Shown piece after piece: positions 18,356-37,249 of a stretch of DNA of 64,000 bases. Positions within the stretch are counted from its first letter, which is position 1, and the number at the start of each line of letters is the position of its first letter. This DNA is from Escherichia coli (lineage in GTDB: Bacteria; Pseudomonadota; Gammaproteobacteria; Enterobacterales; Enterobacteriaceae): the NCBI RefSeq assembly GCF_013122565.1, contig NZ_CP053258.1; one strand, written 5' to 3'. The notes under the pieces are model-generated. The model was given only the letters and a program-made list of their open reading frames with translations. It was not told the origin of the DNA and did not search any database. The position numbers and the translations under genes were made by a program.

Positions 18356-19120
18356 TCAGAGTCGCTGTTTTTCAGCGATATGGTGCTGACAAGCGGTGAT
18401 AAAGCCCTCGAACAATATACGCGAAAGCGCGTACTCGCTACTGTTCCATTCCGGGTGCCACTGTACGCCCAGCGCAAAAGGATGATTGATGACGCTCACC
18501 GCCTCAACTAAGCCATCCGGCGAGCGAGCTTCAACACGCAACCGTGGGCTAACGACCTTCGCCCCTTGTCCATGCAGAGAGTTTACCCAAAAGTTGCTAC
18601 ATTCAGGTAACAACGCAGACAGCAATCCCCCCTCTTCAACCTGAACTTCATGCGACGGTGCATATTGCTGTTCCACCGGCAGTTCGGGATCTTCCCGATG
18701 TTCCAGCAATTCAGGCTGTTCGCACAGCTTGCGATGCAACGAACCACCGGTTGCCACCACCAGTTCCTGTAAACCCCGGCAGATGGCGAAAATGGGGATG
18801 CGCCTTTCGAGTGCGGCATTAATTAACGCCATGCTCAGAAGATCACGCCCGGGATCGGCGTCAGGCTCATCGCCGTTTTCACCATATAGGTGCGGCTGCA
18901 CATTGCTGGGACTACCAGGAAGATAAATACCATCGAGTTTCGGCAAAAGTTGTTCAAGTAATGACGGTTCCGCCAGCGCATGTGGCAGCGCAATCGGCAA
19001 ACCGCCCGCGTGGATGATGGCATTCAGGTACTTTTCTTGCAGAGTCTGGGTCGTATGACCCTTAAGCCTGTTCCTGCACATTACGACACCGATAACCGGA
19101 TTGTTCATTATATTTTCCAT
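18356..19120 (-). CDS. puuD: gamma-glutamyl-GABA hydrolase (class-I glutamine amidotransferase)
   Basis: Track ORF trimmed to MENIMNNPVIG (254 aa); catalytic Cys in AICRG. Confidence 0.9.
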   Translation of the reverse strand: MENIMNNPVIGVVMCRNRLKGHTTQTLQEKYLNAIIHAGGLPIALPHALAEPSLLEQLLPKLDGIYLPGSPSNVQPHLYGENGDEPDADPGRDLLSMALINAALERRIPIFAICRGLQELVVATGGSLHRKLCEQPELLEHREDPELPVEQQYAPSHEVQVEEGGLLSALLPECSNFWVNSLHGQGAKVVSPRLRVEARSPDGLVEAVSVINHPFALGVQWHPEWNSSEYALSRILFEGFITACQHHIAEKQRL

Positions 19121-19331
19121 GCTCAATCTCACAAAGTGGACTAAATTATCGCCATTACTGCGCTTTAAATGACCTTTATGTTCAATATTTTTTCAATCTA
19201 GCAGTGGGTTTTCATTTTTGCAAACTCAATTTAACATTTGACAAACATTTAGTTTGCATACAGATTCGAATGGTGGTCATTATATTTTACGCTTTGATAA
19301 CGAGCGGAAAACAAACCAAAGGCGAAGAATC
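19121..19331. promoter_or_regulatory. puuD/puuA divergent control region with candidate PuuR operators
   Basis: AT-rich spacer with related elements ATGTTCAATATTTTTTCAAT and TGGTCATTATATTTTACGC. Confidence 0.5.
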
Positions 19332-21052: not shown

Positions 21053-22438
21053 ATGGCTATTAATTCACCACTGAATATTGCTGCGCAACCCGGCAAAACC
21101 CGTCTGCGAAAATCACTGAAATTGTGGCAGGTTGTGATGATGGGTCTGGCCTATCTCACGCCGATGACTGTGTTCGATACCTTTGGCATTGTATCTGGCA
21201 TTAGCGACGGTCACGTCCCGGCGTCCTATTTGCTGGCGCTGGCGGGCGTGCTGTTTACCGCTATCAGCTACGGCAAACTGGTTCGCCAGTTTCCGGAGGC
21301 CGGTTCGGCCTATACCTACGCGCAAAAGTCGATTAACCCGCACGTCGGATTTATGGTCGGCTGGTCATCGCTGCTGGATTATCTCTTTTTGCCGATGATC
21401 AACGTCTTGTTGGCGAAAATCTATCTCTCCGCCCTCTTCCCGGAAGTGCCGCCGTGGGTGTGGGTGGTAACCTTCGTCGCCATTTTAACCGCCGCGAATC
21501 TGAAGAGCGTCAACCTGGTCGCTAACTTCAATACCCTGTTTGTACTGGTGCAAATCTCCATCATGGTGGTGTTTATCTTCCTGGTGGTTCAGGGACTGCA
21601 TAAAGGAGAAGGCGTTGGCACCGTCTGGTCACTTCAGCCGTTTATCAGCGAGAACGCGCACCTGATCCCGATTATTACCGGGGCGACGATTGTCTGTTTC
21701 TCGTTCCTCGGTTTCGATGCGGTGACCACGCTTTCGGAAGAGACGCCGGACGCCGCACGCGTGATCCCAAAAGCCATCTTCCTGACGGCGGTATACGGCG
21801 GCGTTATCTTTATTGCTGCGTCGTTCTTTATGCAGCTGTTCTTTCCCGATATCAGCCGCTTTAAAGATCCGGATGCCGCACTGCCTGAAATTGCGCTGTA
21901 CGTCGGCGGCAAGCTCTTCCAGTCGATTTTCCTCTGCACCACGTTTGTGAACACGCTAGCGTCTGGCCTGGCTTCACATGCCAGCGTGTCGCGTCTGCTG
22001 TATGTGATGGGGCGTGACAATGTGTTTCCGGAGCGCGTGTTTGGCTATGTGCACCCAAAATGGCGGACTCCGGCACTCAACGTCATTATGGTCGGAATTG
22101 TCGCGATGTCGGCGCTGTTCTTCGATTTAGTTACCGCCACAGCGTTAATTAACTTCGGTGCTCTGGTGGCGTTTACCTTCGTGAATCTGTCGGTGTTTAA
22201 TCATTTCTGGCGGCGTAAAGGAATGAATAAAAGCTGGAAGGATCACTTCCACTATTTGCTGATGCCGCTGGTTGGCGCGCTAACGGTGGGTGTGCTGTGG
22301 GTTAACCTCGAGTCAACGTCACTGACACTCGGTCTGGTATGGGCTTCGTTAGGCGGCGCATATTTGTGGTATCTGATCCGCCGCTATCGCAAAGTGCCGT
22401 TGTATGATGGTGACAGAACGCCGGTGAGCGAAACGTAA
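21053..22438 (+). CDS. puuP: putrescine importer (APC superfamily)
   Basis: Track ORF trimmed to [12 protein letters not shown] (461 aa); about 12 TM segments. Confidence 0.95.
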
Positions 22439-22447
22439 TAGTCGGAT

Positions 22448-22486
22448 GCGCGGCGCATTATCCTGCCTGAGGGTAATGCACCGCGC
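22448..22486 (+). other. imperfect stem-loop after puuP stop (possible terminator, no U-tract)
   Basis: GCGCGGCGCATTA ... TAATGCACCGCGC, 13-bp arms with one mismatch. Confidence 0.4.
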
Positions 22487-22571
22487 CATTAACTATAAAA
22501 AGATGTATGACCCGGATCACGAGTGCTATCATCCGCCCTTATGCTTAGCGCATTAACCCCAGGGGCAAATA

Positions 22572-22817
22572 ATGAACCACGATATCCCGCTAAAATATTT
22601 TGATATTGCCGATGAGTACGCGACCGAATGCGCAGAGCCTGTCGCAGACGCTGAACGCACACCGCTGGCCCACTACTTCCAGTTACTGCTCACCCGTTTG
22701 ATGAACAATGAAGAGATCAGCGAAGAAGCCCAACATGAAATGGCTGCTGAAGCGGGGATTAATCCCGTACGCATTGATGAGATCGCAGAGTTTTTGAATC
22801 AATGGGGTAATGAGTAA
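22572..22817 (+). CDS. ymjA: small acidic protein of unknown function
   Basis: 81-aa [22 protein letters not shown]. Confidence 0.85.
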
Positions 22818-22850
22818 TTATTTAATTGCAGACGATCGGTCAGTATCGTT

Positions 22851-22880
22851 GCCCGGATAAAGCGTTCACGCTGCATCCGG
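22851..22880. repeat. REP element
   Basis: GCCCGGATAAAGCGTTCACGCTGCATCCGG matches the REP consensus on the opposite strand. Confidence 0.7.
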
Positions 22881-22993
22881 TTAAAATGACACGCATTGCA
22901 GCGTGCTTTAATGGGTTTCTCACGATCGTACCGCTCTGCTCCTCGCTAAGTTGTTCTGTGAGTTATAGTTATAGAGAAATCACGGGTACGAAT

Positions 22994-23024
22994 GTTGAAC
23001 AGATGGCGACGCCATCTGTTCAAC
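22994..23024. promoter_or_regulatory. 31-nt perfect palindrome upstream of sapA (candidate operator or UTR hairpin)
   Basis: GTTGAACAGATGGCG-A-CGCCATCTGTTCAAC, 15-bp perfect arms, about 105 nt upstream of sapA ATG. Confidence 0.4.
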
Positions 23025-23128
23025 GACCAACCACACGGCCCTCATTACGACCCCTGAACACAAACGGTAATGGCAAATGTCATTAAATATTAGTAAGATA
23101 GCCTCTTTACATAAAATCCCTTAATATT

Positions 23129-24772
23129 ATGCGCCAGGTATTATCGTCTCTTTTGGTGATTGCTGGACTTGTGAGTGGTCAGGCAATCGCCGCGCCTGAA
23201 TCCCCCCCGCATGCTGATATCCGCGACAGCGGTTTTGTCTATTGCGTCAGCGGGCAAGTCAACACCTTTAACCCATCCAAAGCGAGCAGTGGGTTAATTG
23301 TCGATACCCTTGCCGCCCAGTTTTATGATCGACTGCTGGATGTCGATCCCTATACCTATCGCCTGATGCCGGAACTTGCCGAAAGCTGGGAAGTACTCGA
23401 CAACGGCGCGACCTATCGCTTCCACCTGCGTCGCGATGTTCCGTTTCAAAAAACCGACTGGTTTACTCCCACTCGTAAAATGAATGCCGACGATGTGGTG
23501 TTTTCCTTCCAGCGAATTTTTGACCGCAACAACCCGTGGCATAACGTCAACGGCAGCAACTTCCCCTACTTCGACAGCCTGCAATTTGCCGATAACGTGA
23601 AAAGCGTCCGTAAACTGGATAATCATACCGTTGAGTTCCGTCTGGCTCAGCCGGATGCTTCTTTTTTGTGGCACCTCGCAACCCATTATGCTTCGGTCAT
23701 GTCGGCAGAATATGCCCGGAAGTTAGAGAAAGAAGATCGCCAGGAGCAACTCGACCGTCAACCGGTCGGCACTGGACCGTATCAGTTGTCGGAATACCGC
23801 GCCGGGCAATTTATTCGCCTACAACGTCATGATGACTTCTGGCGCGGTAAACCGTTAATGCCGCAGGTGGTGGTGGATTTAGGCTCCGGCGGCACCGGAC
23901 GTCTGTCGAAACTCCTGACCGGGGAATGCGACGTTCTGGCCTGGCCTGCTGCCAGCCAGCTATCCATTTTGCGTGACGACCCGCGCTTGCGTTTAACGCT
24001 GCGTCCTGGGATGAACGTCGCCTATCTGGCATTTAACACCGCCAAACCGCCGCTAAATAATCCCGCTGTCCGCCATGCGCTGGCACTGGCGATTAATAAC
24101 CAGCGCCTGATGCAATCCATCTATTATGGTACGGCTGAAACGGCGGCCTCTATTTTACCGCGCGCCTCGTGGGCCTATGACAACGAGGCTAAAATTACTG
24201 AATACAATCCGGCGAAATCGCGCGAACAGTTGAAGGCGTTGGGGCTGGAAAACTTAACGCTGAAACTGTGGGTGCCAACACGTTCGCAGGCGTGGAACCC
24301 CAGTCCACTGAAAACCGCCGAACTGATTCAGGCGGATATGGCGCAGGTTGGCGTAAAAGTGGTGATTGTGCCGGTAGAAGGTCGCTTTCAGGAGGCGCGG
24401 TTGATGGATATGAGCCATGATCTGACGTTATCCGGTTGGGCGACGGACAGTAACGACCCGGACAGTTTCTTCCGTCCGTTACTGAGCTGCGCAGCAATTC
24501 ATTCACAGACCAACCTCGCCCACTGGTGCGATCCGAAATTCGACAGCGTATTGCGTAAGGCGCTCTCCTCGCAGCAACTGGCGGCGCGCATTGAAGCCTA
24601 TGACGAAGCGCAGAGTATTCTGGCGCAGGAATTGCCCATTTTGCCGCTGGCGTCGTCATTGCGTTTGCAGGCCTATCGGTACGATATCAAAGGTCTGGTA
24701 CTTAGCCCGTTTGGTAACGCCTCCTTTGCTGGGGTGTATCGCGAGAAACAGGATGAGGTGAAAAAACCATGA
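23129..24772 (+). CDS. sapA: periplasmic peptide-binding protein of Sap ABC transporter
   Basis: 547-aa ORF with signal peptide, family-5 SBP. Confidence 0.95.
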
Positions 24773-28438: not shown

Positions 28439-28481
28439 CACCTCATTCTGACAAGAGATTAAATCTTGTCAGAATGAGGTG
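28439..28481. other. perfect 18-bp inverted repeat / stem-loop at sapF-ycjD junction
   Basis: CACCTCATTCTGACAAGA-gattaaa-TCTTGTCAGAATGAGGTG; right arm abuts the ycjD start codon; no U-tract. Confidence 0.6.
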
Positions 28482-37221: not shown

Positions 37222-37249
37222 AAAGCCACGGATATATCCGTGGCTTTTT
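37222..37249. terminator. bidirectional terminator between osmB and yciH
   Basis: AAAGCCACGGATATATCCGTGGCTTTTT. Confidence 0.8.

What the first reader, a model, noticed from the sequence alone, without database searches (positions are those of the whole stretch)
22994..23024. 31-nt perfect palindrome upstream of sapA
GTTGAACAGATGGCG-A-CGCCATCTGTTCAAC has 15-bp perfect arms, far beyond chance for this window. It sits about 105 nt upstream of the sapA start and about 180 nt past ymjA, with no following U-tract, so it is not a classic terminator. It looks like a dimeric regulator operator or a stable 5'-UTR hairpin for the sap operon.
Basis: seen in the sequence. Interest (0 to 1): 0.45.

Follow-up and report, generated by a model that had tools for sequence, protein, structure and literature searches.

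The report
Strain-specific perfected palindrome upstream of sapA
The 31-base perfect palindrome upstream of the E. coli sapA gene is real, but it looks like an evolutionary by-product inside the decayed tail of an old phage integrase gene, is perfect in only about one E. coli genome in seven, and shows no sign of being a conserved regulatory switch.

Summary
**Observation:** confirmed. Window 22994-23024 is a perfect 15+1+15 palindrome. It occurs once per genome, and its arms are longer than any seen in shuffled sequence.

**Interpretation:** only partly holds.
- The window is E. coli (puuP-ymjA-sapA).
- Published SMRT-Cappable-seq data for K-12 give two sapA starts.
  - One lies 23 nt before the ATG, downstream of the palindrome.
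  - The other lies 18 nt upstream of the palindrome.
  - ymjA transcripts also read through into sapA.
  - So the palindrome is RNA only in the longer transcripts.
- It is perfect in 744 of 5422 E. coli records (13.7%).
  - K-12 and most strains carry 1-3 pair-weakening differences.
  - Other Escherichia species have 8-14 of 15 pairs.
  - Other genera have nothing comparable.
  - The 85 nt next to sapA stay conserved throughout.
- No compensatory change was found in 11 distinct alleles.
- The left arm is homologous to the last codons of a phage-type integrase gene that is intact upstream of sapA in Citrobacter amalonaticus.
- The right arm was overwritten, with no length change, toward the complement of the left arm.

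**Best reading:** a quasi-palindrome made more perfect by replication template switching, plus one late C-to-T change, in pseudogene debris. It probably has at most a minor hairpin effect. An operator, terminator, repeat element or att site is not supported.

**Interest:** low.

The parts
22994..23008 (.). Left arm of the palindrome (GTTGAACAGATGGCG). This is the ancestral sequence, homologous to integrase-tail codons N-V-(D/E)-Q-(V/M)-A.
   Evidence: -: sequence and repeat detection.
- 12 of 15 identical to a majority-rule Citrobacter consensus (GTTGACCAGGTCGCG) that I counted by hand from the rows.
- the nhmmer alignment covers it.
- ITGTNVEQMA aligns to IAGMNVDQVV.
23009..23009 (.). Central unpaired base (A).
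23010..23024 (.). Right arm (CGCCATCTGTTCAAC). It does not resemble the orthologous Citrobacter bases (5 of 15, with no length change) and reads as the reverse complement of the left arm.
   Evidence: -: alignment and arm comparison.
- the integrase-remnant profile alignment stops at 23013.
- states in the other Escherichia species.
23015..23015 (.). The single derived base (T; every outgroup has C). It turns an A-C mismatch into A-T and makes the palindrome perfect.
   Evidence: -: all seven outgroup Escherichia loci (L007, L008, L009, L098/L099, L100/L102, L103) have C.
- this pair is A-U in 1 of 11 alleles.
- found on two spacer haplotypes.
22945..23062 (+). Decayed 3' remnant of a tyrosine-recombinase (phage integrase) gene, frameshifted and with stops. 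The palindrome lies inside it.
   Evidence: -: blastn of L013 int plus spacer against the window, 67.6% over 188 nt, E = 2.5e-9, window 22945-23131.
- Pfam domains of the intact L013 integrase.
- remnants in other genera.
- protein-level similarity.
22964..22976 (+). Upstream sapA promoter P2: -10 TATAGT (22964-22969) and the mapped start at 22976 (MG1655 1357263). Its 153-nt leader contains the palindrome.
   Evidence: -: SMRT-Cappable-seq, PMC6131387, Supplementary Data 2.
- column definitions.
- coordinate mapping.
- sequence.
- The -10 assignment is my inference.
23071..23106 (+). Proximal sapA promoter P1: -35-like TGGCAA (23071-23076), -10 TAAGAT (23094-23099), and the mapped start at 23106 (MG1655 1357133), giving a 23-nt leader. 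The palindrome centre is at -97.
   Evidence: -: the mapped start.
- this segment is conserved across Escherichia and into Citrobacter and Klebsiella.
- The hexamer assignment is my inference.
22845..22895 (.). REP element just downstream of ymjA. It is the most polymorphic part of the spacer and is separate from the palindrome.
   Evidence: -: weak hit to the REP-derived naRNA4 model.
- sequence matches the REP consensus as I recall it.
- polymorphism.
22572..22817 (+). ymjA (DUF2543). Its promoter gives transcripts that read through the palindrome into sapA and sapB in K-12.
23129..24772 (+). sapA, first gene of sapABCDF.

Best explanation
The palindrome is a lineage-specific quasi-palindrome that has become perfect. 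It sits in non-coding debris, namely the decayed 3' end of a phage-type integrase gene left next to sapA.

**Origin (inferred)**
1. The integrase tail already had a weak outer inverted repeat.
2. On the branch leading to Escherichia, the right arm was overwritten, with no length change, toward the reverse complement of the left arm. This is the signature of replication template switching at a quasi-palindrome, and it gave about 13 of 15 pairs.
3. A G-to-T change gave the 14/15 allele shared by E. marmotae and 31% of E. coli.
4. One further C-to-T change at 23015 gave the perfect allele of this strain.
5. Other lineages lost pairs freely.

**What it does now**
- Shown: it is transcribed only in the minor long sapA leader and in ymjA read-through RNA.
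- Predicted: it folds there into a hairpin of -21.8 kcal/mol in this strain and about -12 kcal/mol in K-12.
- Inferred: it is not a dedicated regulator of sapA. Any effect, such as pausing or a barrier to RNA decay, is incidental and differs between alleles.
For: - **Not conserved as a structure.**
  - It is perfect in 744 of 5422 E. coli records. The K-12 allele occurs in 1713, the 14/15 allele in 1663, and other imperfect alleles in about 1302.
  - Watson-Crick pairs in other Escherichia: E. marmotae 14, E. ruysiae 12, Escherichia sp. MOD1-EC7003 (L007) 12, E. albertii 11 (my hand count), the Escherichia species of locus L009 10, E. whittamii 8.
- **No covariation.** There are 0 compensatory changes, 12 of 15 pairs vary, and the paired fraction (81.8%) is no higher than in shuffles (82.6%).
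- **No purifying constraint within E. coli.** In an unbiased sample, 5 of 31 palindrome sites vary against 17 of 202 flank sites, and every variant weakens a pair.
- **The neighbouring promoter is constrained.** The 85 nt next to sapA stay almost invariant across Escherichia and are recognisable in other genera, while the palindrome region is not.
- **Integrase origin.**
  - An intact integrase abuts sapA in C. amalonaticus.
  - Pseudogenised tails occur in at least 12 other loci.
  - The E. coli segment is homologous to it.
- **One-arm overwrite.**
  - The left arm is 12/15 identical to the Citrobacter consensus and the right arm 5/15, with no indel (hand count).
  - Of 6 changes in the inner 8 nt, 5 go to the complement (my binomial estimate, p about 0.02).
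- **Transcript context.** Two start sites and read-through are mapped.
- **Literature.** Template switching makes E. coli quasi-palindromes more perfect (PMC7202029) and is proposed to explain perfect inverted repeats genome-wide (PMC5941160).
Against: - E. coli, E. marmotae and the clade-I-like strain keep 12-15 of 15 pairs, more than simple decay from 13/15 would predict. Two successive derived changes increased pairing, which could also reflect weak selection for a hairpin.
- Three of the five within-E. coli variants are C-to-T changes that leave a G-U wobble in the sense-strand RNA. This is a weak hint of RNA-level tolerance (3 against 0, not significant).
- The palindrome appeared in the same lineage in which ymjA came to lie upstream of sapA, so an insulating role cannot be excluded.
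- The template-switch inference is post hoc, and its statistics are modest.
- No expression data exist for a strain with the perfect allele.
Confidence: 0.6

Rival explanations
1. It is a functional cis-acting RNA hairpin. In the long sapA leader (P2) and in ymjA read-through RNA, the stem pauses or partly blocks RNA polymerase, or blocks 3' exonucleases. This would insulate sapA from upstream transcription or stabilise ymjA mRNA, with strength set by the allele.
For: - It lies at +19 to +49 of a mapped transcript and inside read-through RNA.
- The predicted stem is strong, at -21.8 kcal/mol, and persists in the fold of the whole leader.
- Most E. coli alleles keep 13-14 pairs once G-U is counted.
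- It arose in the lineage where ymjA sits upstream of sapA.
Against: - There is no U-tract on either strand.
- K-12 transcripts pass through it.
- No 3' ends in this interval appear in the held Term-seq tables.
- There is no covariation.
- E. whittamii and the Escherichia species of locus L009 have lost the stem (-5 to -6 kcal/mol, z = -0.7) even though they have the same ymjA-sapA arrangement.
- It starts 18 nt from the 5' end, too far to act as a 5'-terminal stabiliser (established knowledge of RNase E 5'-end dependence).
Confidence: 0.2
2. It is a DNA operator for a dimeric transcription factor. The factor would either activate the proximal promoter from -97 or block the upstream promoter from +33.
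For: - It has perfect dyad symmetry.
- Its position is compatible with an upstream activator site or a roadblock.
- Genomic SELEX places RNA polymerase sigma-70 binding somewhere in this spacer (PMC3946193).
Against: - The half-sites are polymorphic within E. coli and degenerate in sister species, while the promoter is conserved.
- Symmetry extends over all 15 positions with a 1-nt centre, which is unlike typical operators.
- There are no extra copies in the window.
- It is not a PuuR site: the real PuuR motif occurs three times at 19102-19288, but the arm matches it at only 9 of 15 positions.
- No paper linking a transcription factor to the sapA upstream region was found.
- The sequence derives from a pseudogene.
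Confidence: 0.07
3. It is a relic of a recombination site, such as an att core or another recombinase target, belonging to the integrative element whose integrase remnant contains it.
For: - It lies within the integrase 3' remnant at an insertion-prone spot between pspF and sapA.
- The intact integrase gene already carries an outer inverted repeat here, GTgGATCA...TGATCgAC.
Against: - The arms are adjacent, separated by 1 nt, with no 6-8-bp overlap region.
- The boundary between variable and conserved DNA lies at least 50 nt upstream of the palindrome.
- The Citrobacter loci, including the one with the live integrase, have only 3-8 of 15 pairs.
- No phage in the collection carries this segment.
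- All 5421 E. coli genomes that have the spacer have it uninterrupted.
Confidence: 0.04
4. It is a Rho-independent terminator of ymjA, or a copy of a dispersed palindromic repeat (REP/BIME, ERIC and similar).
For: It is a stable stem-loop downstream of ymjA.
Against: - There is no T-run.
- Read-through is documented.
- A true REP already sits at 22845-22895.
- There is one copy per genome.
- There is no Rfam match.
Confidence: 0.03

Closest known systems
Quasi-palindrome-associated template-switch mutation sites, such as the E. coli thyA hotspot and lacZ reporters (Ripley model; Lovett laboratory)
   Same: An imperfect inverted repeat becomes more perfect through changes confined to one arm that copy the complement of the other arm, with no length change. 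The organism is the same.
   Different: Here the event is inferred from comparing species and was not observed directly. It lies in non-coding pseudogene debris. The last step to perfection is a single C-to-T change that ordinary mutation explains equally well.
Perfect short inverted repeats that are over-represented in E. coli MG1655 (Lavi et al. 2018, PMC5941160)
   Same: It belongs to the same class of object, and the same origin is proposed: preferential correction of imperfect repeats to perfect ones.
   Different: That study reports that perfect repeats tend to be conserved across proteobacteria. This one is not. It is imperfect in MG1655 itself and perfect in only 13.7% of E. coli.
Intrinsic terminators and REP elements as intergenic hairpins
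   Same: It is an intergenic stem-loop between two genes on the same strand.
   Different: It has no U-tract, is single-copy, and is read through. A genuine REP lies 100 nt upstream (22845-22895), and a classic terminator-like palindrome lies elsewhere in the window (37222-37247).
Promoters and UTR elements recruited from decayed mobile-element genes
   Same: The upstream sapA start site and its -10 box lie in sequence derived from integrase codons, so part of the sapA leader is built from prophage debris.
   Different: Only the start site is documented. No regulatory consequence of the palindrome itself has been shown.

Membership tests
Rho-independent (intrinsic) terminator | A G+C-rich stem-loop followed directly by a run of U/T | tested here: not met
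   The stem is present, but no T-run follows on either strand. The terminator scan found 0 sites in 22500-23300.
Rho-independent (intrinsic) terminator | Transcripts end at the element | tested here: not met
   In K-12, whose allele is imperfect, ymjA-promoter and P2 transcripts extend into sapA, sapB and sapC. The held Term-seq tables show no 3' end there, though those files may be incomplete. A perfect-allele strain was not tested.
Transcription-factor operator (dyad-symmetric) | Dyad symmetry | tested here: met
   15-nt arms, 100% complementary.
Transcription-factor operator (dyad-symmetric) | Half-sites conserved in orthologous promoters | tested here: not met
   The half-sites are polymorphic in E. 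coli, degenerate in other Escherichia and absent in other genera, while the adjacent promoter is conserved.
Transcription-factor operator (dyad-symmetric) | Match to a known motif, or further genomic sites forming a regulon | tested here: inconclusive
   It is not a PuuR site (9/15). There are no extra sites in the 64-kb window. A whole-genome half-site search and a motif-library scan were not possible with these tools.
Transcription-factor operator (dyad-symmetric) | A protein binds it | not testable with these tools
   Needs EMSA, pull-down or ChIP.
Dispersed palindromic repeats (REP/BIME, ERIC/IRU and similar) | Many copies per genome with a shared consensus | tested here: not met
   There is one locus per E. 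coli genome. The only Rfam match nearby is the weak REP-derived naRNA4 hit on the separate REP at 22851-22917.
Structured cis-regulatory RNA in a 5' UTR | Lies within a mapped 5' UTR | tested here: met
   It lies at +19 to +49 of the transcript that starts at MG1655 1357263. It is not in the transcript that starts at 1357133.
Structured cis-regulatory RNA in a 5' UTR | Structure supported by covariation or conservation | tested here: not met
   There are 0 compensatory changes, and pairing is no better than in column shuffles. The stem is lost in E. whittamii and in the Escherichia species of locus L009.
Product of quasi-palindrome template switching | Outgroups carry a less perfect inverted repeat at the same position | tested here: met
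   Citrobacter has 3-8 of 15 pairs, the inferred Escherichia ancestor about 13, and the window 15.
Product of quasi-palindrome template switching | Clustered changes in one arm that equal the complement of the other arm, without length change | tested here: met
   The right arm is 5/15 identical to Citrobacter and the left arm 12/15, with no indel. Of 6 inner changes, 5 go to the complement (hand counts, my estimate p about 0.02, post hoc).
Product of quasi-palindrome template switching | The event is observed directly, or is dependent on replication | not testable with these tools
   Needs mutation-accumulation or reporter experiments.
Tyrosine-recombinase attachment-site core | Inverted core-binding sites flanking a 6-8-bp overlap region | tested here: not met
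   The arms are separated by 1 nt.
Tyrosine-recombinase attachment-site core | Located at the junction between element DNA and host DNA | tested here: not met
   Homology among loci with different upstream cargo begins at least 50 nt upstream of the palindrome.

The most novel reading that the evidence does not exclude
The hairpin could be a recently evolved, strain-polymorphic insulator. It would be strong in perfect-allele lineages (O157:H7, O55:H7, E. coli B and this strain), weak in K-12 and almost absent in the B2-type allele (seen here in urinary and other clinical isolates). It would set how much ymjA and P2 transcription reaches the sap operon, which encodes a putrescine exporter also implicated in antimicrobial-peptide resistance. 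That would give heritable between-strain differences in sap expression, created by template-switch mutation in prophage debris.
Probability: 0.1. Interest if true: 0.4.

Novelty: new member of a known kind. Interest (0 to 1): 0.17.

Why it matters
Mostly as a caution. A statistically striking perfect palindrome next to a promoter need not be a regulatory site. Here a population and species comparison shows it is a recent, allele-specific state of drifting sequence.

It is also a tidy natural example of how replication template switching, working on the remains of a prophage integrase gene, can build a long hairpin and contribute a secondary promoter to a housekeeping operon.

If the minority reading were true, it would be a simple model for how such mutations create expression differences between strains.

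Tried and rejected
- **PuuR operator.** This was attractive because sapBCDF exports putrescine and the puu genes are adjacent. The recalled PuuR motif was verified three times in the puuD-puuA spacer, but the palindrome arm matches it at only 9 of 15 positions.
- **Known RNA family.** An Rfam E-value search of 22400-23400 gave only a weak REP-derived hit on the neighbouring REP.
- **Consensus promoter and terminator scan.** Nothing was found. The mapped promoters are too weak for its thresholds.
- **Phage attP.** No phage record carries 22900-23128.
- **Small ORF or leader peptide.**
  - A 21-codon ORF (22992-23057, MLNRWRRHLFNDQPHGPHYDP) stays open in most Escherichia species.
  - Its changes are mostly non-synonymous.
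  - The B2-type, L091 and L007 alleles have early stops (my reading).
  - The longer 86-aa ORF is the decayed integrase frame.
- **Mutation hotspot or recurrent origin.**
  - Polymorphism density in the palindrome is only about twice that of the flanks, which is not significant.
  - The perfect allele sits on two spacer haplotypes.
  - A single origin followed by a REP-region change explains that equally well.
- **Independent confirmation of the start sites.**
  - The Cappable-seq 2016 supplement held here has no entries in this coordinate range.
  - The Thomason 2015 dRNA-seq paper is not held.
- **The promoter predicted by Shimada 2014** (ATGACA-15-TTTAAT = window 22879-22905). It is picked from sequence and does not match either mapped start.
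- **Literature.** Searches for sapA with ymjA, the sapABCDF promoter, and ChIP-exo found nothing on this element.

Full report
**1.
- Window 22994-23024 reads GTTGAACAGATGGCG-A-CGCCATCTGTTCAAC, with 15-nt arms that are 100% complementary and a 1-nt centre.
- The longest close inverted repeat in 30 shuffles of the window had arms of 8-12 nt.
- The 31-mer folds at -21.8 kcal/mol as RNA, z = -8.9.
- The half-site has no other better-than-chance match in the window.
- It lies 104 nt before the sapA ATG and 176 nt after the ymjA stop, with no T-run on either side.
- The window is E. coli. The ymjA-sapA spacer is 100% identical to strain DSM 103246 and is present in 5421 of 5426 complete genomes. 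The gene order is puuA-ymjE-puuP-ymjA-sapA-sapB.

**2. Perfection belongs to this allele, not to the species.**

Counts among 5422 E. coli records:

| Allele | Records | Share |
|---|---|---|
| Perfect 31-mer | 744 | 13.7% |
| 14/15 allele (...CGCCACC...) | 1663 | 30.7% |
| K-12 allele (...CGTCACC...: one G-T, one A-C) | 1713 | 31.6% |
| Other imperfect forms | about 1302 | 24% |

- The "other" class includes an allele seen in urinary and other clinical isolates, which I call B2-type. It has only 12 Watson-Crick pairs.
- The K-12 hairpin is about -12 kcal/mol.
- In a sample of 12 spacers chosen by whole-spacer ranking, 5 of 31 palindrome positions vary against 17 of 202 non-REP flank positions. 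Every variant weakens a pair and none is compensated.

**3. Beyond E. coli the stem fades while the promoter stays.**

| Species (locus) | Watson-Crick pairs of 15 |
|---|---|
| E. marmotae | 14 |
| E. ruysiae | 12 |
| Escherichia sp. MOD1-EC7003 (L007) | 12 |
| E. albertii | 11 (my hand count) |
| Escherichia species of locus L009 | 10 |
| E. whittamii | 8 |

- The last two fold no better than shuffled sequence.
- Across 11 distinct alleles:
  - There are 0 compensatory changes.
  - 12 of 15 pairs vary.
  - The paired fraction (81.8%) is not above column shuffles (82.6%).
  - The pair that makes the stem perfect is A-U in only one allele, the window's.
- Outside Escherichia only the roughly 85 nt next to sapA are recognisable.

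**4. Where it sits relative to transcription.**
- MG1655 coordinates map as window p = 23129 + (1357110 - g).
- SMRT-Cappable-seq operon tables (PMC6131387) list the following:
  - **P1:** sapA transcripts starting at 1357133 (window 23106). This gives a 23-nt leader behind a -10 TAAGAT, in the segment conserved across genera.
  - **P2:** a sapABC transcript starting at 1357263 (window 22976), behind a -10 TATAGT.
  - **Read-through:** ymjA-promoter transcripts (1357699/1357701) that continue through sapA and sapB.
- So the palindrome lies at -112 to -82 relative to P1, and at +19 to +49 of the 153-nt P2 leader.
- In its K-12 form it does not stop transcription.
- The held Term-seq tables show no 3' end in this interval.
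- The hexamer assignments are my inference. The start sites rest on one dataset, because I could not corroborate them elsewhere.

**5. What the DNA is made of.**
- In most Enterobacteriaceae, pspF directly precedes sapA. In Citrobacter the upstream cargo varies.
- In C. amalonaticus an intact 420-aa tyrosine recombinase (Arm-DNA-bind_2 plus Phage_integrase domains) ends 66 nt before sapA.
- Pseudogenised tails of the same gene, with in-frame stops, lie at the same place in about a dozen Citrobacter and Lelliottia loci, and more weakly in Klebsiella.
- The E. coli segment 22945-23131 is homologous to this gene tail plus spacer:

| Test | Result |
|---|---|
| blastn against the L013 gene tail plus spacer | 67.6% over 188 nt, E = 2.5e-9 |
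| Earlier blastn run | E = 3e-8 |
| Profile built only from the integrase part | Window 22959-23013 is the best hit in the window, E = 0.013 |
| Protein level | ITGTNVEQMA against IAGMNVDQVV; frameshifted AKLFCEL* against AKMVYEVY |

- The P2 -10 box and the palindrome therefore both lie in integrase-derived debris.

**6. How the palindrome arose (inferred).**
- The left arm is ancestral. It is 12 of 15 identical to a majority-rule Citrobacter consensus that I counted by hand, and the profile alignment runs through it and stops at 23013.
- The right arm occupies the same number of bases as in Citrobacter but is only 5 of 15 identical. Instead it equals the reverse complement of the left arm.
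- The intact integrase already has an outer inverted repeat (GTgGATCA...TGATCgAC, 8 of 15 overall).
- On the branch to Escherichia, right-arm positions 1-8 changed from TGCTGAAC to CGCCACCT. That is 6 changes, 5 of them to the complement (my estimate p about 0.02, post hoc).
- Parsimony over seven outgroup loci gives three steps:
  1. An Escherichia ancestor with about 13 of 15 pairs.
  2. A G-to-T change giving 14/15.
  3. A C-to-T change at 23015 giving the perfect allele.
- A one-arm, length-neutral overwrite toward self-complementarity is the known signature of template switching at quasi-palindromes in E. coli (PMC7202029). It is also the proposed source of perfect inverted repeats genome-wide (PMC5941160).
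- The perfect allele occurs on two spacer haplotypes: O157/O55, and the window/B/PM7 type. Either recurrence or a single origin followed by a REP-region change fits, so I leave this open.

**7. Alternatives considered.**
- **Intrinsic terminator or dispersed repeat.** Not supported: there is no U-tract, transcription reads through, and there is one copy per genome.
- **Transcription-factor operator.** Not excluded, but the half-sites drift. The symmetry is more complete than proteins need. It is not a PuuR site. No literature links a factor to it.
- **Att core.** Not supported: the arms are 1 nt apart. The junction of variable and conserved DNA lies at least 50 nt upstream. No phage carries the segment.
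- **Modest RNA-level role.** Pausing, a barrier to decay, or insulation of sapA from ymjA transcription remains the main rival. It is favoured only by the retention of 12-15 pairs in E. coli and E. marmotae, and by a non-significant excess of G-U-preserving variants.

**8. Verdict.**
- The feature is real and non-random, but it is an ordinary kind of thing: a quasi-palindrome that drifted to perfection in one set of E. coli lineages.
- It is built from prophage integrase remains, and there is no evidence that it regulates sapA.
- It appears not to have been described before.
- Interest is low.

Noticed in passing
window 28439-28481: An even longer perfect inverted repeat, with 18-nt arms and a 7-nt loop (CACCTCATTCTGACAAGA gattaaa TCTTGTCAGAATGAGGTG). 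It lies between the sapF stop (28411) and the ycjD-like start (ATG 28484). No T-run follows it. The arms contain CTGACA-16-CAGAAT, which Shimada 2014 predicted as the ycjD promoter. The right arm also covers the Shine-Dalgarno-like GAGGTG.
   Followed up: partly
window 37222-37247: A 26-nt perfect palindrome, AAAGCCACGGATA|TATCCGTGGCTTT, followed by TTTAT and preceded by an A-rich run. It looks like a classic, possibly bidirectional, intrinsic terminator.
   Followed up: no
L013:672-1934 (Citrobacter amalonaticus); remnants in L011-L022, L030, L048 at about 1700-1935: The pspF-sapA junction is an insertion-prone spot. There is an intact phage-type integrase directly upstream of sapA in one species. 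Its pseudogenised 3' tail sits next to sapA in many Citrobacter, Lelliottia and Klebsiella loci, and different cargo genes (TetR-like, YheO-like, pentapeptide-repeat) lie upstream.
   Followed up: partly
L007, L009, L100 compared with the window, L008, L098, L103: The puu gene cluster is variably present in Escherichia. Escherichia sp. MOD1-EC7003, the Escherichia species of locus L009 and E. marmotae have pspF-ymjA-sapA. E. coli, E. whittamii, E. albertii and E. ruysiae have an amino-acid permease gene (puuP in E. coli) directly upstream of ymjA.
   Followed up: no
window 22845-22896: The REP element after ymjA is the most variable part of the spacer. The window, B-strain and PM7 haplotype differs from the others by a tight cluster of changes at 22872, 22881, 22896 and a 1-nt deletion at about 22882-22884. 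This looks like a single multi-base event, possibly conversion from another REP copy.
   Followed up: no
window 22992-23057: A 21-codon ORF (MLNRWRRHLFNDQPHGPHYDP) starts just before the left arm. It stays open with the same stop in E. coli, E. marmotae, E. albertii, E. ruysiae, E. whittamii and the Escherichia species of locus L009. The K-12/window differences at 23012 and 23015 and the B2-type change at 23024 are synonymous in this frame. Against that, changes between species are mostly non-synonymous, and three alleles have early stops (read).
   Followed up: partly
window 22962-22973: A tandem duplication, GTTATA GTTATA, within the integrase-derived sequence creates the TATAGT -10 box of the upstream sapA start site.
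   Followed up: no
window 19102-19288: Three copies of the PuuR-type motif AAAATATAATGAACA (0-2 mismatches) lie in the puuD-puuA spacer, where none of 100 shuffles reached the window-wide count. This confirms the identity of that regulatory region.
   Followed up: partly
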